Of a stretch of DNA of 35,658 nt, positions 4,328 to 29,529 are shown piece by piece (the stretch's first letter is position 1; each line of letters opens with the position of its first letter). The notes under the pieces were generated by a model. It searched no databases and was not told the origin of the DNA. It was given only the letters and a program-made list of their open reading frames with translations. Location: NCBI GenBank assembly GCA_964611705.1, contig CAZTAW010000003.1, positions 1-35,658 on the forward strand, written 5' to 3'. The position numbers and the translations under genes are program-made. The DNA is from an uncultured Bacteroidales bacterium (GTDB lineage: Bacteria; Bacteroidota; Bacteroidia; Bacteroidales; JAIOZK01).

Positions 4328-4338
4328 ATTCATCGCTG

Positions 4339-5018: not shown

Positions 5019-5030
5019 ACCTGATATGCT

Positions 5031-5038
5031 TATTTTTG
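5031..5038 (+). promoter_or_regulatory. -7 element (TATTTTTG) for aroQ
   Basis: TAnnTTTG 7 bp before the ATG at 5046. Confidence 0.55.
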
Positions 5039-5045
5039 TAAAGTT

Positions 5046-6491: not shown

Positions 6492-6494
6492 ATT

Positions 6495-7373
6495 CTATTC
6501 TTCGCTTTCTTTTTTATGTTTCCACCTTCTGTGGGACCACAACCAGTTATCGGGGTGTTTTATAACAGCATCCTCAAGAAGGTGAACATATTTTTCAGTT
6601 ATTTCATATTCCTTTGTATTGTTGGGTTCTTCCGTGATCTTTTTAACAAACACATCGTAACACCCCCTGTTGGACCTTACAATATCAAAAAACAAAACAG
6701 CAAAATCCATATTTTTCGACATTTTTTCAAGGCCAAGGAAAAAAGGAGTTTCCTGGTTCAGGAAATTTGTCCAGTAATTGATCTCATCCCTTGTTGGTGT
6801 TTGATCCGAAGCAATGATCACGATATTTCGCTGTTTCCTGATCTTCAGCAATTGCCGGTATGTTTGTCTGAATTTGATCAGGTTATTATATCCTGATTTC
6901 GTGCGTAGCTTGTTCATATAGTCTTCAAAATAAGGTTCAGACAATGGTTTAACAATGGCAAAAGGTTTATGTTCGGAAATCATAGCTATTTTCAGTCCCA
7001 TCCACTCCCAGTTACCGCAATGTCCAATGGCTACAAAAATACTTTTGTTCTTTTCGTAAAGCTCCTCAATGATCTCGTAGTTATGAAATCTAACCCGTTT
7101 ATGCAGGGTTTTTGTCCTGATGCTTTTAATTTTCAAAACCTCCACTACCAGGTCGGCCAGGTTTTTGTAAAACCTGCGGGCAATTTGCCTGATCTCCTTC
7201 TCTGATTTTTCAGGAAAAGAATTTTGCAAATTGGCATAGGTTACTTTTTTCCGGTAACCGATCAAATAAAAAATGATCAGATAAAGCATATCCGAAAGCC
7301 TGTACAGTATAAAGAAAGGAAGCAGGGAAACAATCCAGGCAACAGCGCTAAAAATATAGTAGATCAAACGCAT
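6495..7373 (-). CDS. Lipid A biosynthesis acyltransferase (LpxL/HtrB family)
   Basis: GHCGNWE, SDQ.P, P..WLWSHRRWK motifs; N-terminal membrane anchor. Confidence 0.92.
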   Translation of the reverse strand: MRLIYYIFSAVAWIVSLLPFFILYRLSDMLYLIIFYLIGYRKKVTYANLQNSFPEKSEKEIRQIARRFYKNLADLVVEVLKIKSIRTKTLHKRVRFHNYEIIEELYEKNKSIFVAIGHCGNWEWMGLKIAMISEHKPFAIVKPLSEPYFEDYMNKLRTKSGYNNLIKFRQTYRQLLKIRKQRNIVIIASDQTPTRDEINYWTNFLNQETPFFLGLEKMSKNMDFAVLFFDIVRSNRGCYDVFVKKITEEPNNTKEYEITEKYVHLLEDAVIKHPDNWLWSHRRWKHKKESEE

Positions 7374-7403
7374 ATTCGGTTACTGCTTTATTTTGACGAA
7401 TTA

Positions 7404-7411
7404 CAAAAGTA
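7404..7411 (-). promoter_or_regulatory. -7 element (TACTTTTG) for the acyltransferase-GT2 pair
   Basis: TAnnTTTG 30 bp upstream of the ATG at 7373. Confidence 0.5.
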
Positions 7412-7472
7412 ATCCCATTATTTTGATTAATAATGGGATTCACCAAATTTATTAAATGAGCAAGTTAAAAGA

Positions 7473-8939
7473 TTATCTTGGATTACGGTAATAGTCTTCG
7501 GCTTTGTTGCCCCAGGCATCAGGCGGGCCTGTTGCGTCAACGCTTTGAGGATCGTAATCCCGGCGGTGCAACTCCACTCTCCACCTGTAATTCGAAAGCT
7601 CCCCGAGAGCATCCGAATGCAGTAGCATAAAATCGTTTGTAACCAGGTTGTAGGTATAAAAAACAAAACGCTTGTTCCGTTGGTGTTCGCCCAGCTTGTA
7701 ATAATGCCATATTTCATAGGGATAAGCACTTGGCTCATTATAGCTTTCGGTAACAATATTAGGCGGCCCATACTGCAAATGCACCCTACCCCTGTCGGTT
7801 TCGTAACCTCTCTTTACCTGCGTACTGTATGCTTTATCCACGATCTTGACTTCTTCAAGGTAATCTATCCAGGCCTGGGCAGGATTCAGGTTATTGCGTG
7901 TTCGCCAGAAATTCAGAAAAAACTGTTGCAGTGTGTTTAAATCGGATTTTTCTATCTGCTTAAAAATAAACTGTTTTTCAAACTCCGAGGCAATTGGCGT
8001 CAGGGTTTTGATATATTCCTTTAATGTATCGGCATTGTTAATCTTTCCGGCAAATGTATTGCTTACATCCAGCGCTGCAATATCGTCGAGATCAAATTGT
8101 ATGTCGGGATTACTACGTTGGAAAAACAATGAATTGCTGGTGATAAGCTTATTTTCCCTGTCTTTTACCTCAATAACCAGCTTGTAATTCCCCGAAGGAA
8201 GATTCGCGGTCTTAAACTGATTCAGAACGGGTGTAACTTCCTGTGCATTTAATCTTTTGCTCCGCTGATATCCTGAAATAATCTTTCCGGTTTCAAAGGA
8301 TTTGATATAATAGTTTACCAGGTATTTGCCATCTTCACCCAGCACTTTTTTTGCGTTGTATATTTCTGCATAAAAGATCAACTCCTTTTTGTCTTTCGGG
8401 AAGAAATTGGAAACGTACGGAACTAAATCGTAGCCGCTTTTGCTGAGAATATTTTCGGTTTTCGTTTTGGTGTAAGTCTCAACAAGCTCAACACCCGATA
8501 TCGCGATCTCATTGTCAGGATATTCGATTTTTATCATTTGATTATAACGGAAAGGCTTCTTGTCGCTGTATTTATCCGCAATTTCTATTTCAAACTCGTA
8601 TTCCCCGTCGGGAAGCCCGAAGCGCTGCTGGTCAATAAAACTTTGCCGGATATTTACTGTATCTTCTACAACCGGGCTGTTCAGCTCATATTTTGCAAAA
8701 TCCCTGATGGTATCGTTTTGCTTAAAAATCATGGTTATTTCAACAACACCCTGAAACTCCGTTTCATTGATTTTCTGATAAACAAGTGAATTGGCATTGA
8801 AGGATAAATAAGTTTCGATATAGGGTCCGTCCTGTGGAGAATAAAACGTAGTATACCAAAGGTAGGCATCCAATCGTTTTGCATCGGTATGCTGGAATAA
8901 AAACCCAATGAAAGCAATCAGTATAATAAATTTCTTCAT
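7473..8939 (-). CDS. GWxTD domain-containing exported protein
   Basis: Signal peptide; FW..R, GYETDRGRV.LQYGPP and PYEIW.Y motifs of the GWxTD domain. Confidence 0.85.
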   Translation of the reverse strand: MKKFIILIAFIGFLFQHTDAKRLDAYLWYTTFYSPQDGPYIETYLSFNANSLVYQKINETEFQGVVEITMIFKQNDTIRDFAKYELNSPVVEDTVNIRQSFIDQQRFGLPDGEYEFEIEIADKYSDKKPFRYNQMIKIEYPDNEIAISGVELVETYTKTKTENILSKSGYDLVPYVSNFFPKDKKELIFYAEIYNAKKVLGEDGKYLVNYYIKSFETGKIISGYQRSKRLNAQEVTPVLNQFKTANLPSGNYKLVIEVKDRENKLITSNSLFFQRSNPDIQFDLDDIAALDVSNTFAGKINNADTLKEYIKTLTPIASEFEKQFIFKQIEKSDLNTLQQFFLNFWRTRNNLNPAQAWIDYLEEVKIVDKAYSTQVKRGYETDRGRVHLQYGPPNIVTESYNEPSAYPYEIWHYYKLGEHQRNKRFVFYTYNLVTNDFMLLHSDALGELSNYRWRVELHRRDYDPQSVDATGPPDAWGNKAEDYYRNPR

Positions 8940-9815: not shown

Positions 9816-10652
9816 ATGCCTTCAAAAATCAGATTACAAAGACGTGGTAAAAAAGGAAGACCTTATTACCACATTATTATTGCGGATGGTCGTGCACCAC
9901 GAGACGGAAGATTTATTGAAAAGATTGGCATTTACAATCCAATCACAAGTCCCGCGGAAATTGATCTGGATTTCGACAAAGCCATTGAATGGCTCACCAA
10001 GGGTGCGCAGCCTACCGAAACTGTCAGATCAATTTTATCATTCAAAGGTGTTCTTTTCAAAAATCATCTTTTAAAAGGAGTGAAAAAAGGAGCGCTGACA
10101 GAGGAGCAGGCGGAAGCAAAATTCCAGGCCTGGCTCAAAGAAAAAGAGGAAAAGATTCAAAAACGAATTAAAGAAAGTGAAGAAAAACAGAGAGGCGATC
10201 GCAAGAAAAGACTTGAAGAAGAGATCAAGGTAAATCAGGCAAGAGCAGAAGAGATAGAGAAGAAAAGAGCTGAGGAAATTGAAAAACAAGTGAAAGAAGC
10301 TCAGGAAAAAGAAGAAGAGGAAACAAAGGAAACTGAAGCAAAAGAAAAGGCAGAAAAAGCCAAACCTGAATCAGCACCTGAGACTAAAGAAAAAGAGCAG
10401 CCTAAAGAAGAAAAGAGAGAAGAACACAAGGAAGAGAAGAAAGAGGAACTTAAAGAAGAGAAAAAGGAAGAACCTAAAACTGAAAAGAAAGAAGAGCAGC
10501 CTAAAGAAGAAAAGAAAGAAGAACCTAAGGCTGAGAAGAAAGACGAACCTAAAGAAGAGAAAAAGGAAGAACCTAAAACTGAAAAGAAAGAAGAGCAGCC
10601 GAAAGAAGAAAAGAAAGAAGCTGCTTCGGGTGACAAAACGGATAAAAAGTAA
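9816..10652 (+). CDS. rpsP: 30S ribosomal protein S16 with a long Lys/Glu-rich C-terminal extension
   Basis: KIRLQR.G.K..PYY.I..AD.RAPRDG.FIE.IG.YNP, WL..GAQPT.TV; upstream of rimM. Confidence 0.97.
   Translation: MPSKIRLQRRGKKGRPYYHIIIADGRAPRDGRFIEKIGIYNPITSPAEIDLDFDKAIEWLTKGAQPTETVRSILSFKGVLFKNHLLKGVKKGALTEEQAEAKFQAWLKEKEEKIQKRIKESEEKQRGDRKKRLEEEIKVNQARAEEIEKKRAEEIEKQVKEAQEKEEEETKETEAKEKAEKAKPESAPETKEKEQPKEEKREEHKEEKKEELKEEKKEEPKTEKKEEQPKEEKKEEPKAEKKDEPKEEKKEEPKTEKKEEQPKEEKKEAASGDKTDKK
10451..10620 (+). repeat. 71-bp direct repeat (99-bp period) within the rpsP tail
   Basis: 10451-10521 and 10550-10620 are identical except at one base (10502 T vs 10601 G); embedded in ~24-bp units encoding PKEEKKEE. 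Confidence 0.9.
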
Positions 10653-10670
10653 AAATCTCAAACTGCGATC

Positions 10671-10705
10671 AAAAAAGGCTGGAGTTATTTCTTCAGCCTT
10701 TTTTT
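10671..10705 (+). terminator. Intrinsic, potentially bidirectional, terminator after rpsP
   Basis: AAAAAAGGCTGGAG-TTATTT-CTTCAGCCTTTTTT. Confidence 0.8.
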
Positions 10706-10727
10706 ATTTTTGCTGTATAAACCGGTT

Positions 10728-11249
10728 ATGAAAAAGGAAGATTTTTTTTATTTTGGTCGCATTACCAAACAACTGGGCGCAACAGCCAAATTCCATGCTG
10801 TTATTGATGCCGACGACCCGCAACAATACCGGGAACTTCCTGCTGTTTTGCTATTGATCAACAATACACACATTCCTTTTTCGATCGAAAATATCGAATT
10901 TTTGGAAAATCAGGCCTTAATTACACTTGACGAAACTCCCGACCCGGACATCGTTGAGCTTATTACCGGAACAGAAATATACCTGCCCATTGAACTGCTT
11001 CCCAAACTCAGCGGAAATAAATTTTATTTTCATGAAATAAAAGGTTTTACCATCATTGATAAGAAACACGGTGAGCTTGGAAAAATTAAAGATGTAATGG
11101 AAATGCCCCAACAAGACCTTTTCCAGGTATTTTATCATGGGAAAGAAGTACTAATACCGGTTACTGATGAAGTGATTCAAAAAGTTGACCGGCAAGAAAA
11201 ACAGATCATTGTAAAAATGCCTGAAGGATTAATTGATATTTATCGCTAA
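10728..11249 (+). CDS. rimM: Ribosome maturation factor RimM
   Basis: G.I.K..G, FYFHEI.GF, E.LIP.....I..VD...K.I....PEGLI motifs; ATG at 10728 preferred over the listed TTG at 10710. Confidence 0.93.
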   Translation: MKKEDFFYFGRITKQLGATAKFHAVIDADDPQQYRELPAVLLLINNTHIPFSIENIEFLENQALITLDETPDPDIVELITGTEIYLPIELLPKLSGNKFYFHEIKGFTIIDKKHGELGKIKDVMEMPQQDLFQVFYHGKEVLIPVTDEVIQKVDRQEKQIIVKMPEGLIDIYR

Positions 11250-11953
11250 TGCCTTTCAGATTTAAAAAATTTGAGATAGACGATACGGATTGCACAATGA
11301 AAGTCGGTACGGATGCCGTGTTGCTTGGTGCATGGGTGTATTACAAAAACCCCCGGCACATCCTGGATATCGGTAGCGGATGCGGGATTATCGCACTGAT
11401 GATGGCCCAAAAATTCAGCATGGCCAGGATCAATGCAGTAGAAATTGATGAGATGTCCTGTATCCGAGCCAGGAAAAATGCAAACCATTCACCCTGGCCG
11501 GAGCAAATTCAGATGATCCATTCATCCCTTCAGGAATACCTGAATAAGAATTCGCCGAAATATGATCTTGTTGTCAGCAATCCCCCTTTCTTTAGCAAAT
11601 CTCTTTTACCGGAGAACAAAAAATACGTTTTTGCCAAGCACACAAAAAAACTTGATTATGCCACGCTTTTACATGCTGTAAAATGTTTGCTTACGCCATC
11701 AGGTGCCTGTTTTGTGATCATCCCCTATGAAGCAATATCTGTATTTAATAAAGAAGTTTATATGGCACAACTATTTTACAACAATGATCTGATCATTTTT
11801 CCTAAACCTGGTAAACCTGCCAACAGGGCCATCCTGAAAATAACGAAATCAAAAATTCCGACCGACACAAAAAAGCTGCTTATCAGGAACAGTAAAAACA
11901 CTTACACTGCTGATTACAAGGAACTAACGAAGGATTTTTACCTGCATTTCTAA
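11249..11953 (+). CDS. yfiC: tRNA1(Val) adenine(37)-N6 methyltransferase (TrmN6/YfiC)
   Basis: FRFK.F, MKVGTDAVLLGAW, LDIGSGCG, SNPPFF motifs. Confidence 0.9.
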   Translation: MPFRFKKFEIDDTDCTMKVGTDAVLLGAWVYYKNPRHILDIGSGCGIIALMMAQKFSMARINAVEIDEMSCIRARKNANHSPWPEQIQMIHSSLQEYLNKNSPKYDLVVSNPPFFSKSLLPENKKYVFAKHTKKLDYATLLHAVKCLLTPSGACFVIIPYEAISVFNKEVYMAQLFYNNDLIIFPKPGKPANRAILKITKSKIPTDTKKLLIRNSKNTYTADYKELTKDFYLHF

Positions 11954-12037
11954 AAATTATTTTTTAATTATCCAATTTATATTGTAATATTAAAGCATTA
12001 CCTGTATTTTTGGTAATCTTTTGAAAAAAGCAAAACC

Positions 12038-12850
12038 ATGATCAACACGAGAAAAACAAGATTTCACGTTTTTATTTTATTCCAGCTATTTATACCGGTT
12101 ATTTTGTTCGGATGCCTCGGTAATGAAGTTCAGCGTCCGCTTAAAATTGCTGTTTCCAAAGCTGGACCCGGAGACCATTATGGAAAATATGCCCAATGGC
12201 TTCAAATACAGGACACCACCCTTAAAATCATAAACTGTTTTGATCTGCCGCATAATTCAGCAATACAGGTGCTTGAATATTGCGACGGACTGTTGCTTAC
12301 CGGCGGCCCGGATGTACACCCCGATTTTTACGGTGGCGAACTGAAAAAGGATGTTCCTTTTACAATTGATCTGCGCCGCGACAGTCTTGAATTCATGTTA
12401 ATTGAAAAAGCTCTGGAATTAAACCTTCCGGTGCTGGCTATTTGCCGTGGATTGCAGATCATGAATGTTTCTCAGGGCGGAACCCTTATCTTCGACATAC
12501 CCACAGAAACAGAAAACAAAGTTTTTCACAGATGCCCCGACAAAAACAATTGTTACCATCAGATAAATATTGATACAACATCATTGCTTTACGAAACTAT
12601 CAGTATGGAGATAGGATTTGTAAATTCGAACCACCATCAGGGAATCAAAAAGCTGGCTGGTGTATTCAAAGCCTCAGCACGGACCGAAGACGGATTGATT
12701 GAAGCCATAGAATGGAAAGATAAAAAAAATAAATCATTTTTTATTGGTGTGCAATGGCATCCCGAGAGGCTGGATGAATCCAATCCCTTCTCACTTCCGG
12801 TTGCGCTTTATTTCCTCAAATCAGCAGAAATTTATAATCTAAACAAATAA
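12038..12850 (+). CDS. Peptidase C26 / gamma-glutamyl hydrolase family (PuuD-like), predicted lipoprotein
   Basis: LLLTGGPDV.P, RD..E, ICRG.Q, VNS.HHQ, GVQWHPE; N-terminal signal ending in LFGC; TATTTTTG at 12005-12012. Confidence 0.88.
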   Translation: MINTRKTRFHVFILFQLFIPVILFGCLGNEVQRPLKIAVSKAGPGDHYGKYAQWLQIQDTTLKIINCFDLPHNSAIQVLEYCDGLLLTGGPDVHPDFYGGELKKDVPFTIDLRRDSLEFMLIEKALELNLPVLAICRGLQIMNVSQGGTLIFDIPTETENKVFHRCPDKNNCYHQINIDTTSLLYETISMEIGFVNSNHHQGIKKLAGVFKASARTEDGLIEAIEWKDKKNKSFFIGVQWHPERLDESNPFSLPVALYFLKSAEIYNLNK

Positions 12851-20099: not shown

Positions 20100-21977
20100 C
20101 TACTCCTGATTCACCACCTTCATCATTTTGTGAACGGAAACGTCATTATTTTGAACAATTTCAAGAAAATACATACCTTGCCGGAGGTAAGAAATATTAA
20201 ATTTGAGACCTTCACCCGTGATATTATAATGTCCTTCTCCAACCAGGCCTCCCTGAAAATTAAAAATCCTTACTGCAATTTTTCCTGTTTCCGTATTCCC
20301 GAAAAACAACTCAACTTCATTGGAAACCGGATTTGGTCCGATCTTAGGCCGTACCCAGATCAAACCCGGTTTATCCAGTGTATCTGTTTTTTGGTCATTG
20401 GAAACAATTAGTCTGACACGGTACCTGCCAACACCATTGTACTTCACAACAGGATTTTGTTCCAGGGAATTTGAAGGCAATCCGCCATCAAAAACCCACT
20501 CCCATGTATCAGGCCCTCCTCTTGAAAGATCAGTAAAATCAACACTTTCACCCACAGCAACAGTATCGGAACTGGTCTTGAACAATGCAACCAGCACATC
20601 CGTATTAATTCCTATTCCGTCAAGAGATGTAACTCCGGTGTTTTCAGGATCAAGCCAGGGACGAAGCTGAAGCGAATCATAGCTTCCGTTTGATTCCCAT
20701 GAATAAGAAAACTTTCCATAATAATCCGGGCCGGTTAAATTCTGACAGGAAGCAGCGCCGCCTGTCAGTGCACCTATTATCAGCCTGTCATGATTAAAAA
20801 TGGGCGAACCGGATGAACCGCCTTCAGTAACCCCATGATTCGTTTCAGTTTCAGCCCATACTACTTTCCAGTATTTACCTTCAGGATCATAAGTTGTACC
20901 CTCATACTTTGTTGAAACCAATGGACTGGTAAAAGTTGATATTTTTTTTATATCCCCCTGTGGATGATGAATACCCACACCTTCCGGAGAAGCATTCACG
21001 CTTCGCGACCAACCATTGAAATATGGATTGTAACCTTCGGGTACATTTTCATTCAGCAACAACAACTTAAAATCGGATCCCTGCCCTCCGTTGTTTTTAC
21101 TTTTGGCAACAAGCTGCGACCCGACAATGCTTTGATACTGGGGCTCTATGAGCGGATCAGGGCAGGTAGAAGCCTGGTAATTGAAAATAAAGACCCATTG
21201 ATTGTATTCATTTAAAGTTGTAGTTTCTCCGCAATGGTTTGCCGTATAAAAATAGGGTGTATTATCCAGATTTGTATTATTAACAAGGCTTCCGGTGCAT
21301 AAATAAGTTCCTCCGCCTTGCTTTAACAGGATTTTAGCGATGCCGTTTTTTTCATGCCGCCAGTTATTACCTTCCGGGCAATTTACATTTACCTCACAGG
21401 GACCGGAATCCCCAAACCCTCTTTCATTAATGCTGTAAAAATATGCTACTTCGTTGATGAGAATTTCCGGCAATACATTTGTTTGCTCCGTAAATACATA
21501 CTCCAGTATAATTTTATCTCCGGGAACAGGAATTGTAGCAAAGGATCTTCCTTTTTTGTTTGTTTGGGAATTAAACGAACCAATATAGCTGCTTCTTTTG
21601 GCATTATAAATAAATAGCTGCCCTCCATCCGGTATCCTGAATTGAGAATAATAAAAACCCAATGCTTTTGCACCCGGAACTGATATTGAAAGTCTCAGCA
21701 GCTTAGTTCCCTTATTCGTAAACAGTGTTGTTGCTGTATTGGCAAGATCAATATCGGATGGTATGCTAACAGCCACCTGCAAAGGTTGAAAACCGGATTT
21801 TTGTATTTTTTCTCTTTCCGGAATATCTGGTTCGCTGAATGTTATTGTTTTGATGTTATCGAATGAATTTACTTTTTTGAATCCGGGCGGCACACCACCG
21901 TGATTTATTTGCGCATTTGCAGAAAATATACCGGCTAATAAGCTTGCTACGAAAATTGCTGTTTTTCTAATCATCAT
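20100..21977 (-). CDS. T9SS-secreted trypsin-like serine protease (lysyl endopeptidase-like) with one PKD domain
   Basis: Signal peptide from MMIRK (start 21977 or 21974, not 22040); propeptide; TANHC, SDF and TEGGSSGSP triad; IHHP.GDIKKIS; PKD (F.D.S......W.W.F.GG); T9SS CTD. Confidence 0.88.
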   Translation of the reverse strand: MMIRKTAIFVASLLAGIFSANAQINHGGVPPGFKKVNSFDNIKTITFSEPDIPEREKIQKSGFQPLQVAVSIPSDIDLANTATTLFTNKGTKLLRLSISVPGAKALGFYYSQFRIPDGGQLFIYNAKRSSYIGSFNSQTNKKGRSFATIPVPGDKIILEYVFTEQTNVLPEILINEVAYFYSINERGFGDSGPCEVNVNCPEGNNWRHEKNGIAKILLKQGGGTYLCTGSLVNNTNLDNTPYFYTANHCGETTTLNEYNQWVFIFNYQASTCPDPLIEPQYQSIVGSQLVAKSKNNGGQGSDFKLLLLNENVPEGYNPYFNGWSRSVNASPEGVGIHHPQGDIKKISTFTSPLVSTKYEGTTYDPEGKYWKVVWAETETNHGVTEGGSSGSPIFNHDRLIIGALTGGAASCQNLTGPDYYGKFSYSWESNGSYDSLQLRPWLDPENTGVTSLDGIGINTDVLVALFKTSSDTVAVGESVDFTDLSRGGPDTWEWVFDGGLPSNSLEQNPVVKYNGVGRYRVRLIVSNDQKTDTLDKPGLIWVRPKIGPNPVSNEVELFFGNTETGKIAVRIFNFQGGLVGEGHYNITGEGLKFNISYLRQGMYFLEIVQNNDVSVHKMMKVVNQE

Positions 21978-22023
21978 TAATAATCTTTCAGGAATAAAAG
22001 TATAAAAAAGTTGAGGAATAAAT

Positions 22024-22058
22024 AAAAAACCCGGCAGCAAATATCAAACCACCGGGTT
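22024..22058 (-). terminator. Intrinsic terminator between the two protease genes
   Basis: Minus strand AACCCGGTGGT-loop-GCTGCCGGGTT followed by TTTT. Confidence 0.7.
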
Positions 22059-22082
22059 AACACATTTTATTTTCCAAGTTAT

Positions 22083-24281
22083 TTATCTTACCAAAGATAT
22101 CCTTTCAACAACCTCAATATCATTGATATTGATTGAAATTAAATAAACACCTTCAGCCTGTTTGCTCAGGTCAATCAAACATTTGCCTTCATTATCAAGG
22201 TTGTTGTAATGTTGTATTTGTTCTCCGATGGCATTGTAAACAGTAATCTCTGCATTTTCAACTTCAATATTCGCTACTTCCAACGCAACTTTACCTTTCG
22301 AAGGATTGGGATAAAGTTTTATGTTTTGAGCAAGCTTGTTTTCGTCCAATCCTACCCAAACTACGCTGATATATGCTTCTTTATAGATTGAATCCATTCC
22401 TCCGGGGGCATAAGCTTTAAGGGTCACATCAAAAACACCTTTTTCAGGATAAACAATATCTTGCGGGTCCTGATCATTTGAGTTTTCGGGTTCACCTCCC
22501 TCAAAATACCATTCCCACCAGAAAGGATCGTTCGTTGTCAGGTCAGTGAAATCAATATCATTTCCGGGTTCGATCATGGTAGCATTGGCTTCAAAATCAG
22601 CCTCCGGGGCTTCGCCTTCATACCTTACATGGATATAATCCTCCATGATCAATTCATCATCGCCATCGGGATTACTTACCTGCAGGGTTACATCAAAATA
22701 TCCCGTATCAATATACATCACTTGCGGGTTTTGGATATGAGATGTATCAATATTAGCGCCTTCAAAAATCCATGTCCAGGATTGTGGTTTATTAGTTGTT
22801 GAATCAGTGAACTGAACTGCTTCTCCCGAAACCACCTCTGTTTCATCTGCGCCAAAATTAGCAACCGGAGGAATCGCCTCCAGTGGAATCCCATCGCAAA
22901 CCGTATCACCGGTGTTATTTGGATCGAGCCAGTCTTTCAACCTGAATTCCGCTGAATTACCGCATTTATCCCAGGAATAATAAATTTTCCCGTAAAAAGC
23001 CGGTCTTGGGGATTCGCATGAATTACCCTGGTAGGTACCTGTCAGGTCTCCCAGGATTCTTTTGTCCTGGTTAAAAACCGGTGAACCTGAAGAACCACCC
23101 TGAATGACAGATGTTCCATTTGCGGTTTCAATCCACCATAATCTCCAGTGTGTCTGTGCGCTGCTTCCACCAGGCCATGAGGAAGAAACCATATGGTCAT
23201 AGGTGGAGATTTTCTTGATATCACCATTCGGATGATGTATATTAACGCCGCTGTCGCCGGGTACATCCCTTCTGTCCCAGCCATTATAGAAAGGATTATA
23301 CGTTGAAGGCAACTGTGAATTTAAAAGAACAAGGAAAAAGTCAGACCCGTTTCCGGCAAATGTATGATCCCAGGCTTTTAGTGAAGCGCCTGTCATAGTT
23401 TGGTTTTGCGGCCCTGATGATCCGCTGCATGAACCCGACTGGTAATTAAAATAAAACACCCATTGATTCAGGTCGGATGTAGAAGCGCCTTCTCCACAAT
23501 GGGCCGCAGTAAGAAAATAGGGCTGTCTGTCCCAGTTTGTGTTATTGATCAATGATCCGGAGCAATATCCGTATAAGCTGCCAATTTTAAGTAATATTTT
23601 GGCAATTCCGTTTTCTTCTTCACGCCAGTTATCTCCTTCTTCGCATGCAATATTGATCATACACCACCAGGATGGATCGCGGCTGTCTCTTTCGGCAAAC
23701 TCAAATTTAACAAACCTATACATATATGCTAGCTCCGAAATATTTAGCTTGGGAATATTTTCAACAGAAGCCGGTTGATAATATTCCAGTGTTACCTTAT
23801 CACCTTGTATCAACTCTGTTGCAAACAATCCGGAAGAATGATTATTGGCACTGGTAAAAGCGCCAATTACTTGTTTCTGATCTGCATTGTATAAATACAG
23901 CTCCCCTCCTTCAGGAAGTTGAAAATCGTCATAATACAAACCAAGGCCAACTGCGCCGGGGCATTCCAGGCTGAGACGCCAGATTTTTCCGCCATCGGCC
24001 AGTTCTGTCCAGGTTCCCGAGTTATAAATTCCCTTGTTAACAATGATCGAAACACCTGCACGTGGAACTGCCGGATTATCCATTGCTGCAATGGCATCTT
24101 CCTGCCGGATTTTTTCCATGTCAGGAGCCTGCAGCATTATGGTTTGATAATCATCATTCAATGCTTTACCCAGCATACTGGGCGGGGTTCCCCCCTGGCT
24201 GATCTGTGAATAAGATTGGGCGCTGAATCCGAGAAAAGCAAACGCAATCAATAAGTAAACGTAAATTCTGTAATTTGTCAT
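22083..24281 (-). CDS. T9SS-secreted trypsin-like serine protease (lysyl endopeptidase-like) with two PKD domains
   Basis: Signal peptide from MTNYR (start 24281); TAAHC, SDF and QGGSSGSP triad; two PKD repeats; YPNP-type CTD; paralog of the downstream gene. Confidence 0.88.
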   Translation of the reverse strand: MTNYRIYVYLLIAFAFLGFSAQSYSQISQGGTPPSMLGKALNDDYQTIMLQAPDMEKIRQEDAIAAMDNPAVPRAGVSIIVNKGIYNSGTWTELADGGKIWRLSLECPGAVGLGLYYDDFQLPEGGELYLYNADQKQVIGAFTSANNHSSGLFATELIQGDKVTLEYYQPASVENIPKLNISELAYMYRFVKFEFAERDSRDPSWWCMINIACEEGDNWREEENGIAKILLKIGSLYGYCSGSLINNTNWDRQPYFLTAAHCGEGASTSDLNQWVFYFNYQSGSCSGSSGPQNQTMTGASLKAWDHTFAGNGSDFFLVLLNSQLPSTYNPFYNGWDRRDVPGDSGVNIHHPNGDIKKISTYDHMVSSSWPGGSSAQTHWRLWWIETANGTSVIQGGSSGSPVFNQDKRILGDLTGTYQGNSCESPRPAFYGKIYYSWDKCGNSAEFRLKDWLDPNNTGDTVCDGIPLEAIPPVANFGADETEVVSGEAVQFTDSTTNKPQSWTWIFEGANIDTSHIQNPQVMYIDTGYFDVTLQVSNPDGDDELIMEDYIHVRYEGEAPEADFEANATMIEPGNDIDFTDLTTNDPFWWEWYFEGGEPENSNDQDPQDIVYPEKGVFDVTLKAYAPGGMDSIYKEAYISVVWVGLDENKLAQNIKLYPNPSKGKVALEVANIEVENAEITVYNAIGEQIQHYNNLDNEGKCLIDLSKQAEGVYLISININDIEVVERISLVR

Positions 24282-24305
24282 GATAATGGGTTTTGTTTTA
24301 AGCCA

Positions 24306-24332
24306 CAAATATAATGATATTATGTACATTTG
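24306..24332. promoter_or_regulatory. Back-to-back divergent -7 elements (TATATTTG on -, TACATTTG on +)
   Basis: CAAATATA at 24306-24313 and TACATTTG at 24325-24332 in the 83-bp gap between the protease and MFS start codons. Confidence 0.65.
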
Positions 24333-24364
24333 GGGCGAATTCTGAAATCCCAATAAAATTTATC

Positions 24365-26422
24365 ATGGAGCAAATCAAAAGAACATTAAGAGATTCGGCC
24401 AAAGCCCGCTGGACTATGATGTTCATCATTAGCTTTTTAATGGCTGCCAATTATTATTTTTATGACGCGTTATCCCCCTTAAAAGAAATCCTTACCGAAC
24501 ACCTGAATTTTTCATCGGGTGATTACGGGATTGTAACCGGTTTTTATGCCTTCCCAAACACCTTTCTTTTAATGGCCATTATTGGCGGGATCATCCTCGA
24601 TAAGCTCGGCATACGACCAACTGGATTTATGTTTGCGGTTTTAATGCTGATCGGCGCTGCATTGACAGCCTACGGCGCTTCTAACTATTACAGTTCCGGC
24701 GGTATAGGTTATGAATTCATGGGTTCATTCTGGAAATCATACTCTCCTGAACTTAAAATGATGTCCCTGGGTATGCTCATCTTTGGTCTGGGAGCTGAAA
24801 CCAGTATTGTTGTTGCCAGTAAAGTACTCGTTAAATGGTTCAAGGGTTATGAGATTGCGCTTGCTTTTGCTCTCAACCTTGGAATAGCAAGAATAGGAAC
24901 AGCCCTGGCTTTCAATCTCTCACCCCGTTTAATATTCGGAGATAACTGGCAATTCCCGATCTGGTTTGCCGTAATGATATTACTGATCGGTTTTCTCGGC
25001 TTTCTTATTTATATAATGTATGATGTTAAACTTGACCGGCAGATGAAAAGCAATATCAAGCTTATGGATAAAGAAGATGAATTCCATATTGCAGATATTG
25101 GCAGACTTCTCACAAATAAATCTTTCCTTTTTATTACTGCACTTTGTGTTACTTTTTATGCAGGTGTATTTCCTTTTCTCAAATTTGCGCCTGATCTTTT
25201 TTATAATAAATACGGATTTTCTTTGCAGGCCAGCGGAGATATTGCCTCCCTCCTGCCATACGGAACAGTGTTGTTTACACCGATTTTCGGATGGGTAGTT
25301 GATAAATGGGGGAAAAGTGCTACCCTAATGATCTATGGTTCCCTGTTATTGCTAATTGTCCATTTGCTATTCGGGTTAACACGATTTGATGTATATCTGT
25401 TGATGGTATTGCTGGGTATCGCCGTGTCACTTGTACCGGCAGCCATGTGGCCGTCGGTTGCCAAGATCGTTCCTACTTCACGGATCGGAAGCGCTTACGG
25501 TACGATGTTCTCTCTTCAAAATTTAGGGCTGTTTGCTGTGCCAATACTTGCCGGCGTGATCCTGGATTCAACCAATAAATATTCTGACACCTACTTAAAA
25601 CCCACACAGGTAAAAGAAGTGTTTGCAGAAAATTATGAACTGCAATCATCCTATTATAATAATGATAAGGAACCTATCACGGATAAAGACCTGCGGGCAA
25701 CAGTATACATCCTTACAATCCCTGACAAAATTGAGTGGCAGGATAAAGAAGAAAATATAATTGCCGACACCATTCAGAAATACAGTAAAACTGTATGGTC
25801 GGAATACGACAGCACCCAAACCAACAACAAGGGCAAGTTTGATATTTTCTTCGGAAAGGGAAATCTGCTTAAACTTAATATGCAATACATGAACATCCCG
25901 TCAGGCAAATACCTGATGAATATTTCCACGGAAGAAGAGGAAAACGAACCGGCAGTCACGATTTATAAGGGGCTACTTATTTTCGACAGGGATAGCCTGG
26001 ACAGGATACCATTGGAACATAATCTTTCTGATGAATTATTAAATAAAATTGATGAAACAGGGTTTGACATCAACATTGTTGTAAGAGATACTGCAAACAA
26101 TGCAAACATAACAGTTCTTAAAGAATCACATGAGGTGAAAATTAAGAACAATAAAATAGATTTCAAGCTTGGGAAAGGAAATATTGCTTTTGCCAACATC
26201 AATTATCTTAACTCCAGCAAACCCAACGAGGTTTATTTCATAAAAGTAAGAACACCCCTGGATTATACATACACTTGCCTGTTGTTCGCTTTATTTGGCA
26301 TCATCGGCTTCTTCTTTGCCCTGCTGTTAAAGCATAACGACAGAACATCAGGCTACGGACTTGAATTACCATCCAATGCCACGGAGGAGGAAATACAGGA
26401 AAAACTTAAAAAGAAGGAGTAA
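24365..26422 (+). CDS. MFS transporter (MFSD1-like) with a large soluble insert before the last TM helix
   Basis: YFYD, GGIILDKLGIR, FGLGAE, KWFKG.E, FYAGVFPF, MWPSV, AYG.MFS.QNLG; ~225-aa hydrophilic insert; start at MEQIK. Confidence 0.88.
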   Translation: MEQIKRTLRDSAKARWTMMFIISFLMAANYYFYDALSPLKEILTEHLNFSSGDYGIVTGFYAFPNTFLLMAIIGGIILDKLGIRPTGFMFAVLMLIGAALTAYGASNYYSSGGIGYEFMGSFWKSYSPELKMMSLGMLIFGLGAETSIVVASKVLVKWFKGYEIALAFALNLGIARIGTALAFNLSPRLIFGDNWQFPIWFAVMILLIGFLGFLIYIMYDVKLDRQMKSNIKLMDKEDEFHIADIGRLLTNKSFLFITALCVTFYAGVFPFLKFAPDLFYNKYGFSLQASGDIASLLPYGTVLFTPIFGWVVDKWGKSATLMIYGSLLLLIVHLLFGLTRFDVYLLMVLLGIAVSLVPAAMWPSVAKIVPTSRIGSAYGTMFSLQNLGLFAVPILAGVILDSTNKYSDTYLKPTQVKEVFAENYELQSSYYNNDKEPITDKDLRATVYILTIPDKIEWQDKEENIIADTIQKYSKTVWSEYDSTQTNNKGKFDIFFGKGNLLKLNMQYMNIPSGKYLMNISTEEEENEPAVTIYKGLLIFDRDSLDRIPLEHNLSDELLNKIDETGFDINIVVRDTANNANITVLKESHEVKIKNNKIDFKLGKGNIAFANINYLNSSKPNEVYFIKVRTPLDYTYTCLLFALFGIIGFFFALLLKHNDRTSGYGLELPSNATEEEIQEKLKKKE

Positions 26423-26423
26423 A

Positions 26424-28430
26424 ATGGAACAGTTCAGAAAAGCACTGAAGGACTCAGCAAGCATCAGGTGGAGTATACTATTCCTGATCGCATTTGTGCA
26501 AGCGGCCAACTATTATTTTTACGATGCTCTTTCACCTTTAAAGAGATTACTCGAAGATAATTTCAACTTTACATCTTCCGATTACGGATTTTTTGTAGCT
26601 GCTTATTCCATTCCCAACACATTTCTGTTGATGGCAATTTTGGGAGGAATGATACTCGACAAACTTGGCATCAGAAGAACAGGATTTTTGTTTGTAGGTT
26701 TGATGGCTGCCGGAGGTTTGCTTACTGCATACGGTGCAAGCGAGTATTTCTCGAATGGCGGTTTTCTTTACGGGTTTTTCAATTCTTTTCTAACGGATTA
26801 TACACCTGAATTGAAAATGATGTTGCTGGGTCGCTTCCTCTTCGGTTTGGGAGCTGAAACCAGCATTGTGGTCGAAAGCAAGGTCATTGTGAAATGGTTT
26901 AAGGGAAAGGAACTGGCGCTGGCATTCGGAATGAAGATCGGGCTTGCAAGGGCAGGTTCGGCTTTGGCGCTCTTTTACTCAGCCGAAATTGCTGAAGCGG
27001 CCTCCCACTGGACCATAGCTATATGGTTTGCTGCTATTTTACTACTGATCGCATTCCTGGCTTTTCTGGTATATACCATCTTTGATGTGAGACTTGATAA
27101 GCAGATCATTCAGAAATCCGCCGTCAAGAGCGACGATCGTTTCAGCTTTGCCGACCTTGGAAAACTACTGACCAACAAATCCTTTATTTACGTCACACTG
27201 CTTTGTGTTACATTTTATTCAGCGGTATTCCCATTCCAGGCATTTTCTCCTGATTTTCTATTAAACAAATTCGGGATGGGATTATCACAAAGTGGTAAAA
27301 TTGCTTCAATTCTTTATTGGGTTACCATGTTTGCCACACCTTTGTTCGGTTTGGTGGTTGATAAATACGGGCGAAGCGCTACATTAATGATATTCGGGTC
27401 CATTTTACTTGCTGTCATCCATCTTACTTTTGCTTTAACCTATTTTAATCCGGTAGTGCCGTTACTTTTCTTAGGTATCGCGATAGCGCTTGTACCGGCT
27501 GCCATGTGGCCATCGGTTGCAAAAATTGTTGCAGAAAAAAGAATTGGAACTGCCTATGGAGCCATGTTTTCAATTCAAAATCTTGGGTTATTTGCATTTC
27601 CAATACTGGCAGGTTTTATTCTCGATATTACCAACAAAAACGCTGAGATATATCTTACACCTGAACAAACAACAACAATAAAAAATGCAAAGGTGTTTGA
27701 GGTTGAGTATCTCGATAATCAAGACCAGCCAGTTGCAAACAAAAAACTTTTGTCATCGGTAACACTTTATTGGATGCCGGATACATTAAAACTCAAAGAA
27801 GAGGAAAATGAACTAAAAAATCAGATTGACAAACATGGTAAAATGATCTGGACCGAATACTTCCAAACACGATCTGACAAAAGCGGAAAATTTTCAGTCA
27901 AACCGGGAAGTGACGGCACTGAAAAAATCAATGTAAAATATTTTAATATTGATCCCAAAAACACACTGATACTTATTTCAGCCAATGATTCGGCCCGAAC
28001 CTCGCTGTATGAATTCACAGACGTACAGCAGGATACGGTAAATGAATATTTGCTTCAAAAAATCAGTCTGCCTGAGGAAGTTGAAAACAAAATCAAACAA
28101 TCAGAAAAAATTAATGTTACTTTAACAGACACCTCAGGAAATGTAATTATTTTGGACGAAAAACATAAAGTGTTCTTTGATGATGAAAGCTTACTGAGTC
28201 TCAGGGTCGGTAAAGGTGAAATAGCCTATGCAAATATTGATTACCTCAACTGGACTGATAATGTTGTGGTAAAGATCAGGACGCCATTAAACTATACATT
28301 CGCCATCTTAATGTTCGCAGCGCTAGGTGTTCTTGGATTTATATTCGCATTATTGCTGAAACGTGAAGATAAAAATTCCGGTTACGGACTTGAGCTTCCA
28401 TCAAACAAGAAAGCCAAAAATTCAGCGTAA
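26424..28430 (+). CDS. MFS transporter (MFSD1-like) paralog with the same type of insert
   Basis: Same motifs as the upstream gene; start MEQFR 1 bp after the upstream stop; both share SGYGLELPSN near the C-terminus. Confidence 0.88.
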   Translation: MEQFRKALKDSASIRWSILFLIAFVQAANYYFYDALSPLKRLLEDNFNFTSSDYGFFVAAYSIPNTFLLMAILGGMILDKLGIRRTGFLFVGLMAAGGLLTAYGASEYFSNGGFLYGFFNSFLTDYTPELKMMLLGRFLFGLGAETSIVVESKVIVKWFKGKELALAFGMKIGLARAGSALALFYSAEIAEAASHWTIAIWFAAILLLIAFLAFLVYTIFDVRLDKQIIQKSAVKSDDRFSFADLGKLLTNKSFIYVTLLCVTFYSAVFPFQAFSPDFLLNKFGMGLSQSGKIASILYWVTMFATPLFGLVVDKYGRSATLMIFGSILLAVIHLTFALTYFNPVVPLLFLGIAIALVPAAMWPSVAKIVAEKRIGTAYGAMFSIQNLGLFAFPILAGFILDITNKNAEIYLTPEQTTTIKNAKVFEVEYLDNQDQPVANKKLLSSVTLYWMPDTLKLKEEENELKNQIDKHGKMIWTEYFQTRSDKSGKFSVKPGSDGTEKINVKYFNIDPKNTLILISANDSARTSLYEFTDVQQDTVNEYLLQKISLPEEVENKIKQSEKINVTLTDTSGNVIILDEKHKVFFDDESLLSLRVGKGEIAYANIDYLNWTDNVVVKIRTPLNYTFAILMFAALGVLGFIFALLLKREDKNSGYGLELPSNKKAKNSA

Positions 28431-28431
28431 T

Positions 28432-29529
28432 ATGAAAAAATCATTGTTTGTACTCGCGATAACTGTTTTTATTTCAGGATGCAACATAAATCAAAAACCT
28501 GATTACAGTGCAGATTCCAATCAACCCAAAAACATCATTTTATTGATCGGGGATGGAATGGGCCTTTCACAGCTTTATGCTGCTTTTAAGACAAAGCAGG
28601 ACAAAACGCAATTAGCCCGATGTAACTTCATTGGATTGATCAATACCAGTTCAATCAGCGATTTGATTACTGATTCGGCAGCTTCCGGAACAGCTATGGC
28701 CTGCGGTGTTAAAACCAACAACCATGCACTTGGTGTTGACCGCGAAGGAAATAAGGTAAAAAGCATCCTTGAAATTGCCGAAGAAAACGGAAAAGCAACA
28801 GGACTGGTTGCAACCGCCGCGATCACACATGCCACACCGGCTTCGTTTGTTGCCCACAATTCCAGCAGACACGATTATGAGGGCATCGCCATGGATTTCA
28901 TCAAAAGTGATATTGATGTATTCATTGGAGGCGGAATAAAACATTTTGCACATCGGGATGACAGTTTAAATCTTTTGGATAGCCTGAGAGCAAAGAACTT
29001 CCGGGTAATTACCGAAATGAATGAAATTGAGACCATCAGCTCAGGAAAATTAGCTGCACTACTTTACGAAAAACATCCGCCAAGCCTTTTGGAAGGAAGG
29101 GAAGGATTTCTTGAAAAATCAAGCCTGAAAGCCATTGAATTGCTAAACCACGATGAAGACGGTTTTTTCCTGATGATAGAATCTTCACAGATTGACTGGG
29201 GCGGACATGATATGAATCAGGAATATGTTGTTAGCGAAACCGTAGAATTTGATGATGTTGTCGGAAAAGTTCTTGATTTTGCCGAAAAAGACGGTGAAAC
29301 ACTGGTTATCATCACATCCGACCATGAATGTGGTGGAATGACCATAATTGGTGAAGATCAGGAAACAGGTGAGATCATAGCACATTTTTCAGCAGACCAT
29401 CACACACCTGTATTTGTACCACTATTCGCTTTTGGCCCCGGAGCTGAAGAATTTTCAGGTATTTACGAAAATACTGAGATCTTTCATAAAATGATGAAAG
29501 CATTTGGTTTCTCCGGGAAACAGGAATAA
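28432..29529 (+). CDS. phoA: Alkaline phosphatase, predicted lipoprotein
   Basis: IGDGMG, TDSAASGTA (catalytic Ser), THATPA, E...ID..GH, TSDHE.GG; lipobox ISGC; ATG at 28432. Confidence 0.92.
   Translation: MKKSLFVLAITVFISGCNINQKPDYSADSNQPKNIILLIGDGMGLSQLYAAFKTKQDKTQLARCNFIGLINTSSISDLITDSAASGTAMACGVKTNNHALGVDREGNKVKSILEIAEENGKATGLVATAAITHATPASFVAHNSSRHDYEGIAMDFIKSDIDVFIGGGIKHFAHRDDSLNLLDSLRAKNFRVITEMNEIETISSGKLAALLYEKHPPSLLEGREGFLEKSSLKAIELLNHDEDGFFLMIESSQIDWGGHDMNQEYVVSETVEFDDVVGKVLDFAEKDGETLVIITSDHECGGMTIIGEDQETGEIIAHFSADHHTPVFVPLFAFGPGAEEFSGIYENTEIFHKMMKAFGFSGKQE

What the first reader, a model, noticed from the sequence alone, without database searches (positions are those of the whole stretch)
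25577..26250. MFS transporter with a ~225-aa beta-rich two-module domain inserted between TM11 and TM12
Seen: after ...GVILDSTN the hydrophobic pattern breaks for ~225 aa and resumes at PLDYT with a final TM. The insert contains two similar segments: VWSEYDSTQTNNKGKFDIFFGKGN...LNMQYMN and VLKESHEVKIKNNKIDFKLGKGN...ANINYLN...YFIKV. Established: in the 12-TM MFS topology the 11-12 loop faces outward and is normally short, and MFSD1 needs a separate luminal partner, GLMP. Inference: a built-in periplasmic accessory domain for substrate capture, gating or partner docking. From memory it resembles the N-terminal module of many Bacteroidota exported proteins (N..V..RISI...VY.ETH...TN..GL..L.IG.G....F..IDW....FLKV), suggesting domain capture.
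Basis: partly seen in the sequence, partly recalled or inferred. Interest (0 to 1): 0.75.

Follow-up and report, generated by a model that had tools for sequence, protein, structure and literature searches.

The report
Peptide-type transporter with captured fibre-anchor modules
A bacterial relative of the lysosomal dipeptide transporter MFSD1 carries, in one outward-facing loop, two copies of a small beta-rich module that otherwise sits at the start of exported fibre proteins, a real and undescribed built-in accessory domain whose job is still unknown.

Summary
Window 24365-26422 (+) encodes a 685-aa, 12-helix MFS transporter. About 231 aa (residues 404-634, nt 25574-26266) are inserted between TM11 and TM12. 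The next gene (26424-28430) is a 50%-identical paralog with the same insert.

- **Core:** it is MFSD1-like. The only PDB sequence hit is 8r8q (E 3.4e-43), and 10 of 13 dipeptide-site residues are identical.
- **Insert:** it folds confidently (pLDDT 88.5) as a beta-rich body made of two homologous modules (hhalign 98.4%). It matches no Pfam family and has no clear PDB fold match.
- **Origin:** each module is homologous (hhalign 98.3-98.5%) to the N-terminal module of signal-peptide-bearing fibre-like proteins. These proteins occur in 131 of 201 genomes of the order and resemble the N-domain of Bdellovibrio "mosaic adhesive trimer" (MAT) fibres.
- **Distribution:** most orthologs have a 17-23-aa loop at this site. 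The insert occurs in about 18 of 401 genomes of the order.
- **Evolution:** it is under purifying selection but evolves 4-5 times faster than the core. In one genome it was copied between tandem paralogs.

Function is inferred: most likely a periplasmic docking or tethering module. An earlier scan note described Bacteroidota MAT fibres on other DNA, but not this transporter insert.

The parts
24365..26422 (+). p1: MFSD1-like MFS transporter, 685 aa counted from MEQIK (the gene caller's frame starts at 24314)
   Evidence: ORF. Pfam MFS_1 E 5.1e-29. PDB 8r8q_A E 3.4e-43. AF2 pLDDT 88.0, pTM 0.86. Foldseek top hit 8r8q_A, E 2e-12.
25475..25570 (+). TM11 (residues 371-402). It carries Q385/N386/L389, which align with MFSD1 Q396/N397/L400
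25574..26266 (+). Periplasmic insert, residues 404-634, bounded by the conserved LD.TN and PL.YT motifs
   Evidence: Short orthologs have 17-23 aa at this site. AF2 of the insert alone gives pLDDT 88.5, pTM 0.84.
25637..25930 (+). Module 1 (residues 425-522): six strands plus an inserted helix at 467-473. Contains ...VWSEYDSTQTNNKGKFDIFFGKGN...
   Evidence: hhalign against module 2: 98.4%. Against the exported-protein module: 98.3%, E 2.5e-14. Strands.
26012..26254 (+). Module 2 (residues 550-630). Contains ...VLKESHEVKIKNNKIDFKLGKGN...YFIKVRT
   Evidence: hhalign against module 1. Against the exported-protein module: 98.5%, E 4e-15.
26267..26350 (+). TM12 (residues 635-662)
26348..26377 (+). 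Conserved cytoplasmic tail motif SGYGLELPSN, shared by long and short forms
26424..28430 (+). p2: tandem paralog (668 aa). It is 50% identical to p1 overall, 59.7% in the core and 30.1% in the insert
27633..28298 (+). Insert of p2 (about 222 aa, two modules). Its module 2 is the only place in this genome hit by the exported-module profile
28432..29529 (+). Alkaline phosphatase lipoprotein gene, 1 nt after p2. It belongs to the syntenic block and is not specific to the insert
   Evidence: Pfam Alk_phosphatase E 8.6e-75 and a lipobox. Follows long forms in G351, G126, G246, G165 and G282. It also follows a short form in G048.

Best explanation
**Shown**
- p1 and its neighbour p2 are inner-membrane transporters of the MFSD1 family. 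They keep the dipeptide-binding residues of the lysosomal transporter.
- Their periplasmic TM11-TM12 loop has taken in a tandem pair of about 90-aa beta-rich modules. These fold into one compact body.
- The modules are homologous to the N-terminal module of exported, signal-peptide-bearing fibre-like proteins of the same phylum. Those proteins in turn resemble the N-terminal domain of Bdellovibrio MAT fibres.
- The insert is optional in evolution: most orthologs lack it.
- It is kept under purifying selection and can move between tandem paralogs by recombination across the conserved flanks.

**Inferred (about 45% likely)**
- The insert is not part of the transport cycle. It is a docking or tethering module on the periplasmic face of the transporter's C-domain.
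- It would hold a periplasmic or envelope partner (a protein or a wall component) next to the entry of a small-peptide-type transporter.
- Three comparisons suggest this. The periplasmic domain of AmpG1 holds Slt. The PepT1 extracellular domain holds trypsin. The MAT N-domain is thought to hold a cell-envelope element.
- The partner is unknown.
For: **Core**
- The only PDB sequence hit at E <= 0.001 is MFSD1 8r8q_A, E 3.4e-43.
- 10 of 13 published binding-site residues are identical: Y30, Y33, E145, R176, Y265, F269, W362, Q385, N386, L389. One is conservative (Q176 to N171). This is my reading of the alignment against residues named in PMC11252000.
- Foldseek with the full model ranks 8r8q_A first.

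**Fold**
- pLDDT 88.5 and pTM 0.84 for the insert alone. pTM 0.86 for the whole protein.

**Duplication**
-.

**Homology to exported modules**
- The 19-insert profile hit 36 other genomes of 400 in a phylum-wide sample, with E down to 2.6e-11.
- All 11 loci inspected are N-terminal modules placed just after a signal peptide in non-MFS frames.
- hhalign gives 98.3% and 98.5% and 98.1%.
- In reverse, the exported-module profile finds only p2's module 2 in this genome.

**Link to MAT fibres**
- NF053851 Bdello_MAT_N hits 6 of 6 exported proteins, E 3e-11 to 2.6e-7.
- It hits 7 of 19 inserts directly, best E 7e-8.
- 2 of 11 exported proteins end in Peptidase_S74.
- Caulton 2024 (PMC10769870, passages read) says the MAT N-domain has no PDB homologue and presumably binds a surface element.

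**Accessory nature**
- 89 of the 120 best homologs are short, with a 17-23-aa loop at the same site.

**Selection**
- Insert dN/dS is 0.17-0.37. Insert dN is 0.479 against 0.092 for the core in one same-genus pair.

**Mobility**
- In the G084 tandem pair the insert is 83.6% identical against 61.4% for the core. Insert dS is 0.22 against 1.63 for the core.

**Precedents**
- AmpG1 periplasmic domain binding Slt (PMC13507758, abstract and passages).
- PepT1/2 extracellular domain binding trypsin (PMC4597091, abstract).
- Rv1410 TM11-12 extension and LprG (PMC10576003, passages).
Against: - No partner was identified.
- The neighbouring genes (alkaline phosphatase, T9SS trypsin-like proteases) also flank short forms. 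Synteny therefore points to no partner.
- This genome has no detectable exported copy of the module, so any partner cannot be specific to such fibres.
- The binding role of the MAT N-domain is itself only presumed in the literature.
- Invariant insert residues are mostly Gly, Trp and Glu. That fits a scaffold but names no ligand.
I could not see whether the insert sits over the substrate entrance, which would favour gating or capture.
- The insert's own NF053851 scores are far below the 60-bit cut-off, and p1's insert gives no hit.
Confidence: 0.45

Rival explanations
1. Built-in GLMP-like cap. The insert stabilises the transporter or shields its periplasmic face from proteases. It would do in cis what the separate subunit GLMP does for MFSD1.
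For: - The core is MFSD1-like.
- GLMP is a beta-sandwich on the luminal side, and its TM helix lies next to MFSD1's C-domain (PMC11252000, passages).
- The insert hangs from the last two C-domain helices.
- Protease genes lie upstream.
Against: - Most orthologs in the same order do without it, including ones next to the same protease genes.
- No fold match to GLMP appeared among the 50 rows listed. That is inconclusive.
- The module's relatives are fibre N-domains, not chaperone-like subunits.
Confidence: 0.2
2. Substrate capture or selectivity filter. The modules bind the transported solute or a larger precursor and feed it to the cavity.
For: - The position is beside the outward opening of the C-domain.
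- High whole-chain pTM (0.86) suggests a fixed pose on the transporter.
- Fast sequence change could track different substrates.
Against: - There is no conserved polar pocket motif. The invariants are Gly, Trp and Glu.
- The binding-site residues in the membrane are the same in long and short forms (invariants).
- Homologous modules sit in fibre proteins with no transport role.
Confidence: 0.15
3. Tolerated passenger. A mobile domain landed in a permissive loop and persists with little function.
For: - The distribution is patchy. It needs at least 4 changes on the core tree. Holding the clade-C short forms together as one clade is rejected, p-AU 0.00028.
- The same loop holds a different, helical insert in a distant paralog.
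- The insert evolves fast.
Against: - dN/dS is 0.17-0.37, not about 1.
- Frames are intact and folds confident across three deep clades.
- It was re-acquired or converted rather than decaying.
Confidence: 0.1

Closest known systems
MFSD1 with its accessory subunit GLMP (lysosomal dipeptide uniporter; PDB 8R8Q; PMC11252000)
   Same: - The core is homologous (E 3.4e-43; Foldseek rank 1).
- 10 of 13 binding-site residues are identical.
- A beta-rich accessory domain sits on the non-cytoplasmic side, next to the C-domain.
   Different: - Here the accessory part is in the same chain, in the TM11-12 loop.
- It is a tandem of fibre-N-domain-like modules with no shown likeness to GLMP.
- The host is bacterial.
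- Transport activity is untested.
N-terminal domain of mosaic adhesive trimer (MAT) fibres (Bdellovibrio; NCBIfam NF053851; PMC10769870) and the matching N-terminal module of exported Bacteroidota fibre-like proteins
   Same: - Module-level sequence homology.
- Beta-rich.
- No clear PDB homologue (the paper says the same of the MAT N-domain).
   Different: - There it is a single copy directly after a signal peptide at the start of a fibre.
- Here two copies sit inside a transporter loop.
- All scores are under the family's 60-bit cut-off.
- p1's own insert matches only through profiles.
AmpG1 of Acinetobacter baumannii (PMC13507758)
   Same: - An MFS permease with a lineage-restricted Ig-like periplasmic domain of about 196 aa inserted in a C-bundle loop.
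- That domain docks a periplasmic enzyme (Slt).
   Different: - AmpG family with 14 TMs, and a different loop in canonical numbering.
- No sequence comparison was made here.
- Its partner is known; none is known here.
Extracellular domain of PepT1/PepT2 (PMC4597091)
   Same: - Two tandem beta-sandwich domains in an outward loop of the C-domain of a peptide transporter.
- Binds a protease.
   Different: - POT family, mammalian, TM9-10 loop.
- Structural match is only Z 4.0, at noise level.
TM11-TM12 periplasmic extension of Rv1410 (and QacA) (PMC10576003)
   Same: - The same loop is used as an outward-projecting functional element.
- It is proposed to position the lipoprotein LprG.
   Different: - There it is a helical extension of about 20 Å in a DHA2 efflux-type MFS.
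- It is not an independent beta domain.

Membership tests
Major facilitator superfamily, MFSD1-like subfamily (core of p1/p2) | 12 TM helices in two six-helix bundles; Pfam MFS_1 above the gathering score | tested here: met
   MFS_1 scores 101.7 and 122 bits against a cut-off of 33.4. 12 TM helices.
Major facilitator superfamily, MFSD1-like subfamily (core of p1/p2) | Closest solved relative is MFSD1 | tested here: met
   Only PDB sequence hit, E 3.4e-43. Foldseek rank 1, 28% identity.
Major facilitator superfamily, MFSD1-like subfamily (core of p1/p2) | Dipeptide-binding residues (Y56, Y59, E150, Q176, R181, Y276, F280, Y365, W373, Q393, Q396, N397, L400 of MFSD1) | tested here: met
   10 of 13 are identical and Q176 becomes N. 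Y365 becomes V and Q393 becomes F, so these two differ (alignment read against PMC11252000).
Major facilitator superfamily, MFSD1-like subfamily (core of p1/p2) | Dipeptide transport; dependence on a GLMP-type subunit | not testable with these tools
   Needs a transport assay.
MAT fibre N-terminal domain (NCBIfam NF053851 Bdello_MAT_N) | HMM score at or above the curated 60-bit cut-off | tested here: not met
   The best insert scores 32.4 bits (L016). 7 of 19 inserts hit at E <= 1. p1's and p2's inserts give no hit. I therefore do not file the insert as a member, only as a homologous module.
MAT fibre N-terminal domain (NCBIfam NF053851 Bdello_MAT_N) | Profile-level homology to N-terminal modules of signal-peptide-bearing fibre-like proteins | tested here: met
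   hhalign 98.3%, 98.5% and 98.1%. HMMER E down to 2.6e-11. Reciprocal hit.
MAT fibre N-terminal domain (NCBIfam NF053851 Bdello_MAT_N) | Position directly after a signal peptide at the head of a fibre protein | tested here: not met
   Here the modules lie inside the TM11-12 loop of a transporter.
PepT1/2-type extracellular domain | Two Ig-like domains between TM9 and TM10 of a POT transporter | tested here: not met
   The loop is TM11-12 and the carrier is MFSD1-like. Fold likeness to 5a9h is Z 4.0, which is inconclusive.
GLMP | Separate single-pass membrane protein with a luminal beta-sandwich | tested here: not met
   The domain is in cis. Fold likeness is inconclusive: GLMP is not among the 50 rows listed.
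Pfam DUF7038 (PF23047) | Score at or above the 27-bit gathering cut-off | tested here: not met
   Scores are 15-18 bits. 6 of 19 inserts hit at E <= 1, best E 0.0011.

The most novel reading that the evidence does not exclude
The tandem modules are an autonomous envelope- or partner-binding unit that Bacteroidota re-used from surface fibres to give an MFSD1-type transporter a built-in accessory subunit. This would be the bacterial, in-cis counterpart of GLMP. It would also show that the so far uncharacterised MAT-fibre N-domain binds a ligand present in the periplasm. That would make both the MFSD1-GLMP relationship and the unknown anchor of MAT fibres testable in one small bacterial protein.
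Probability: 0.2. Interest if true: 0.75.

Novelty: new variant of a known kind. Interest (0 to 1): 0.6.

Why it matters
MFS transporters with extra outward-facing domains are rare, and each studied case (PepT1/2, AmpG1, MFSD1-GLMP, Rv1410) revealed coupling between a transporter and an outside partner.

- **A bacterial MFSD1 model:** this is an MFSD1-type carrier with an accessory domain in the same chain. Natural loop-only orthologs, and even a one-module form, serve as ready-made controls.
- **A handle on the MAT N-domain:** the accessory domain comes from a module family that is very common in this order (131 of 201 genomes) and has no Pfam model. Its Bdellovibrio counterpart has no known ligand. 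A soluble two-module unit of about 230 aa from a transporter loop is an easy object for finding that ligand.
- **A clean evolutionary example:** it shows domain capture followed by gene conversion between tandem paralogs.

I found no description of this architecture in searches of the held library.

Tried and rejected
- **ESM Atlas** on the insert gave no usable hit.
- **Foldseek** of the insert model against PDB and BFVD gave nothing at E <= 0.001, with TM-scores <= 0.2.
- **VIA-align** over 48,161 chains gave a best Z of 5.5 (a split-barrel FMN protein). The rest were generic beta-sandwich rows at Z 4-5, below the level the tool calls meaningful. PepT2 ECD scored Z 4.0, and GLMP is not among the 50 rows. 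I therefore name no fold. The N-terminal half of the insert was barely tested by that search.
- **Pfam** gave only sub-threshold DUF7038 and stray CarboxypepD_reg-type hits. DUF7038 in the own genome hits only the two inserts, below cut-off.
- **Word-index search** with the insert gave 3 proteins among 1,152 candidates.
- **The search for related loci** with the insert alignment returned an error because no stretch was conserved enough.
- **Partner hypotheses from synteny** (alkaline phosphatase, T9SS trypsin-like proteases) were dropped. Both also flank short forms.
- **A complex-prediction job** (p2 insert with the phosphatase) was never accepted because the queue was full. I abandoned it after one search removed its rationale.
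- **A recent copy of p2's insert into p1** is rejected. The inserts are 30.1% identical. p1-type inserts also form their own clade in the insert tree (99 SH-aLRT).
- **Chimeric assembly** is rejected.
- **Expression:** no RNA holder was listed.
Full report
**1. What is in the sequence**

Window 24314-26422 (+) is an open frame of 702 aa. Homologs begin at MEQIK, so I count from 24365, which gives 685 aa and which I call p1.

Hydropathy shows eleven hydrophobic helices up to residue 402 and one more at 637-655. Pfam finds MFS_1 on residues 40-410 of the frame and nothing above threshold beyond that.

A full-length AlphaFold2 model was built from an alignment of 58 homologs. It has mean pLDDT 88.0 and pTM 0.86. 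It places TM11 at 371-402, a beta-rich block at 403-634 and TM12 at 635-662.

Short loops on the predicted cytoplasmic side carry 13 K+R against 3 on the other side. The core also aligns with MFSD1, whose termini are both cytoplasmic (PMC11252000, passages read). The loop therefore faces the periplasm.

The gene that follows after 1 nt (26424-28430, p2, 668 aa) is a paralog. It is 50% identical over the full length and has the same insert. These two are the only copies of the insert in this genome, which is 93.5% complete.

**2. The carrier is MFSD1-like**

The only PDB sequence hit at E <= 0.001 is MFSD1, 8r8q_A, at E 3.4e-43. Foldseek with the full model also ranks 8r8q_A first (E 2e-12, 28% identity).

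I read the alignment against the binding-site residues named in PMC11252000:
- Ten of 13 are identical: Y30, Y33, E145, R176, Y265, F269, W362, Q385, N386, L389.
- Q176 becomes N.
- Y365 becomes V and Q393 becomes F.

Most of these positions are invariant across 58 long and short homologs. A small zwitterionic substrate such as a dipeptide is therefore a reasonable inference. It is not shown.

**3. The insert is a precise, optional addition**

- Of the 120 best database homologs (6,777 proteins at E <= 1e-20 among 8,000 scored candidates), 89 are 435-507 aa, one is 566 aa and 30 are 624-702 aa.
- In an alignment of 124 sequences, the short forms have 17-23 residues (typically NPGITPEMIE.G..LNYT) between the same LD.TN and PL.YT motifs that flank the insert.
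- P0069 has one module (124 aa). The long forms have 206-236 aa.
- In a 401-genome sample of the window's order, a two-sequence insert profile hit 19 genomes. Eighteen of these hits lie in MFS frames and one (G091) does not.
- The carrier itself is found in 132 of 201 genomes of the order at E <= 1e-80. Only 10 of the 145 listed matches, in 8 genomes, lie in frames of 640 aa or more.
- In a phylum-wide sample of 401 genomes, no transporter-embedded insert was seen outside the window's own genome.

**4. The insert is a folded tandem duplication**

- The insert alone, folded from 19 sequences taken from genomes, gives pLDDT 88.5 and pTM 0.84. It has 15 strands of three or more residues and three short helices.
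- The N half against the C half of the 19-sequence alignment gives hhalign probability 98.4%, E 5.2e-15, over 78 columns.
- No fold could be named. Foldseek against PDB and against BFVD gave nothing.
- VIA-align over 48,161 chains gave at best Z 5.5, below the tool's own noise guide. Generic beta-sandwich rows cover model residues about 107-196.
- Those ranges straddle the repeat boundary. Each module may therefore lend its last strand to the other. This is inference only, because I could not see coordinates.

**5. Where the modules come from**

A HMMER search of 1.84 billion representative proteins used the two-sequence profile. It found 7 proteins at E <= 0.001. Six are this transporter family, whole or as fragments. 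One is a weak hit (E 1.3e-4) to an unrelated repeat protein.

The richer 19-sequence profile hit 36 further genomes of 400 across the phylum. Each hit covers one module only (E 1e-4 to 2.6e-11). All 11 loci I opened show the module directly behind a signal peptide at the start of non-MFS proteins of 249 to over 600 aa.

- Profile-profile comparison gives 98.3% (E 2.5e-14, 79 columns) to module 1 and 98.5% (E 4e-15, 80 columns) to module 2. With the tool's own hhalign it gives 98.1%.
- In reverse, a profile of the 11 exported modules finds only p2's module 2 in this genome (E 2e-5).
- That same profile finds 131 of 201 genomes of the order, with up to 25 copies each and E down to 1e-40.
- Pfam has no model for the module. 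2 of 11 carriers end in Peptidase_S74 and 1 in DUF7452.
- NCBIfam NF053851 (Bdello_MAT_N) hits 6 of 6 exported proteins tested, E 3e-11 to 2.6e-7.
- It also hits 7 of 19 transporter inserts directly, best E 7e-8. These hits cover module 1 or module 2, and all are below the 60-bit cut-off. None is for p1 or p2.
- Caulton et al. [quoted passage not shown] It has no structural homologue in the PDB, and they presume it binds a cell-surface element.
It did not describe this transporter.

**6. History and selection**

The core-only maximum-likelihood tree had 81 rows with the insert columns removed. Rows left out were 59 of the 89 short database proteins (every third was kept), five fragments, P0001 and P0126. 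It shows three groups:
- a p2-type clade, all two-module apart from one short row;
- a clade of single-copy two-module forms;
- a clade of short forms, in which P0069 and the p1-type long forms are nested (100 SH-aLRT).

The insert's presence needs at least 4 changes on this tree, 3 of them forced by starred branches. Holding the 33 short forms of that clade together costs 101.4 log-likelihood units (p-AU 0.00028). The caveat is that I named the group after seeing the tree. Regain cannot be told from repeated loss here.

On the insert tree, p1-type inserts form their own clade (99 SH-aLRT). That clade also holds the insert of the p2-type copy of genome G084. In that tandem pair:
- the insert is 83.6% identical against 61.4% for the core;
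- insert dS is 0.22 against 1.63 for the core.

This shows gene conversion between neighbours.

The insert changes much faster than the core. p1 against P0002 is 96.6% identical in the core and 66.5% in the insert. It is still under purifying selection:
- dN/dS is 0.168 in a close pair, where the core is 0.175;
- it is 0.37 in the G084 pair;
- it is about 0.22 against 0.057 for the core in a same-genus pair, where dS is saturated.

**7. Surroundings**

p1, p2 and an alkaline-phosphatase lipoprotein gene follow each other at 1-nt spacing. Two T9SS trypsin-like protease genes lie divergently upstream.

The block rluD / proteases / transporter(s) / phosphatase / epimerase / M23 is syntenic across families. 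However, the phosphatase also follows a short form (G048), and the proteases also flank short forms. The neighbours therefore say nothing about the insert.

**8. Reading**

Shown:
- An MFSD1-type carrier has captured a tandem of fibre-N-domain-like modules in its periplasmic TM11-12 loop.
- The insert is optional, selected and mobile between paralogs.

Inferred, at about 45%: it is a docking or tethering module for a periplasmic or envelope partner. The grounds are:
- the presumed binding role of its relatives;
- the lack of any catalytic-looking invariant;
- its dispensability for the carrier;
- precedents in AmpG1 with Slt (PMC13507758), the PepT1/2 extracellular domain with trypsin (PMC4597091, abstract) and Rv1410 with LprG (PMC10576003).

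Rivals are a GLMP-like protective cap (0.2), substrate capture (0.15) and a tolerated passenger (0.1).

**9. Novelty**

Searches of the held library found no description of an MFSD1-type or other MFS carrier with such modules. The searches were:
- MFSD1 + Bacteroidetes;
- MFS + periplasmic domain + TM11 and TM12;
- MFS transporter + beta-sandwich + periplasmic + Bacteroidota;
- mosaic adhesive trimer + Bacteroid.

Subscription journals and supplements were not searched. I rate it a new variant of a known kind: MFS carriers with an accessory outward-facing beta domain.

Noticed in passing
window 26424-28430: A tandem paralog (p2) has the same two-module insert. It belongs to a clade in which nearly all members carry the insert. 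In most relatives the pair is a short form followed by a long form.
   Followed up: yes
L037 (G084:C137) 4201-6234 and 6339-8369: The inserts of two tandem paralogs are 83.6% identical while their cores are 61.4% identical. Insert dS is 0.22 against 1.63 for the core. This is gene conversion of the insert between neighbours.
   Followed up: yes
P0069 (566 aa, database protein): A natural one-module form (124-aa loop) of the same transporter family. It could be an intermediate or a partial deletion.
   Followed up: partly
L031 (G260:C1) 10559-12322, minus strand: A distant paralog (588 aa, 37% identical to p2). By eye it has what look like two extra hydrophobic helices after TM7 and a different, non-hydrophobic insert of about 70 aa that looks helical in the same TM11-12 loop. 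This loop seems to be a hot spot for additions. Several frames of 530-600 aa may be similar.
   Followed up: no
L041-L058 and (order-wide): A very common N-terminal module of exported fibre-like proteins has no Pfam model. It occurs in 131 of 201 genomes of the order, with up to 25 copies per genome. It gives only sub-threshold hits to NCBIfam Bdello_MAT_N. Some carriers end in Peptidase_S74.
   Followed up: partly
window 20100-24353, minus strand: Two paralogous secreted trypsin-like serine proteases with PKD domains and T9SS C-terminal sorting domains lie divergent from the transporter operon. The arrangement is syntenic in several families.
   Followed up: partly
window 28432-29529: An alkaline phosphatase lipoprotein gene lies 1 nt after p2. 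It is conserved after the transporter in at least six other genomes, including one where the transporter is a short form. A functional link between an MFSD1-type carrier and a phosphatase is unexplained.
   Followed up: partly
window 24365-28430: The stretch is held in single contigs of two runs labelled microbial mat metagenome, with 3-4 single-base differences. These may be the source sample.
   Followed up: yes
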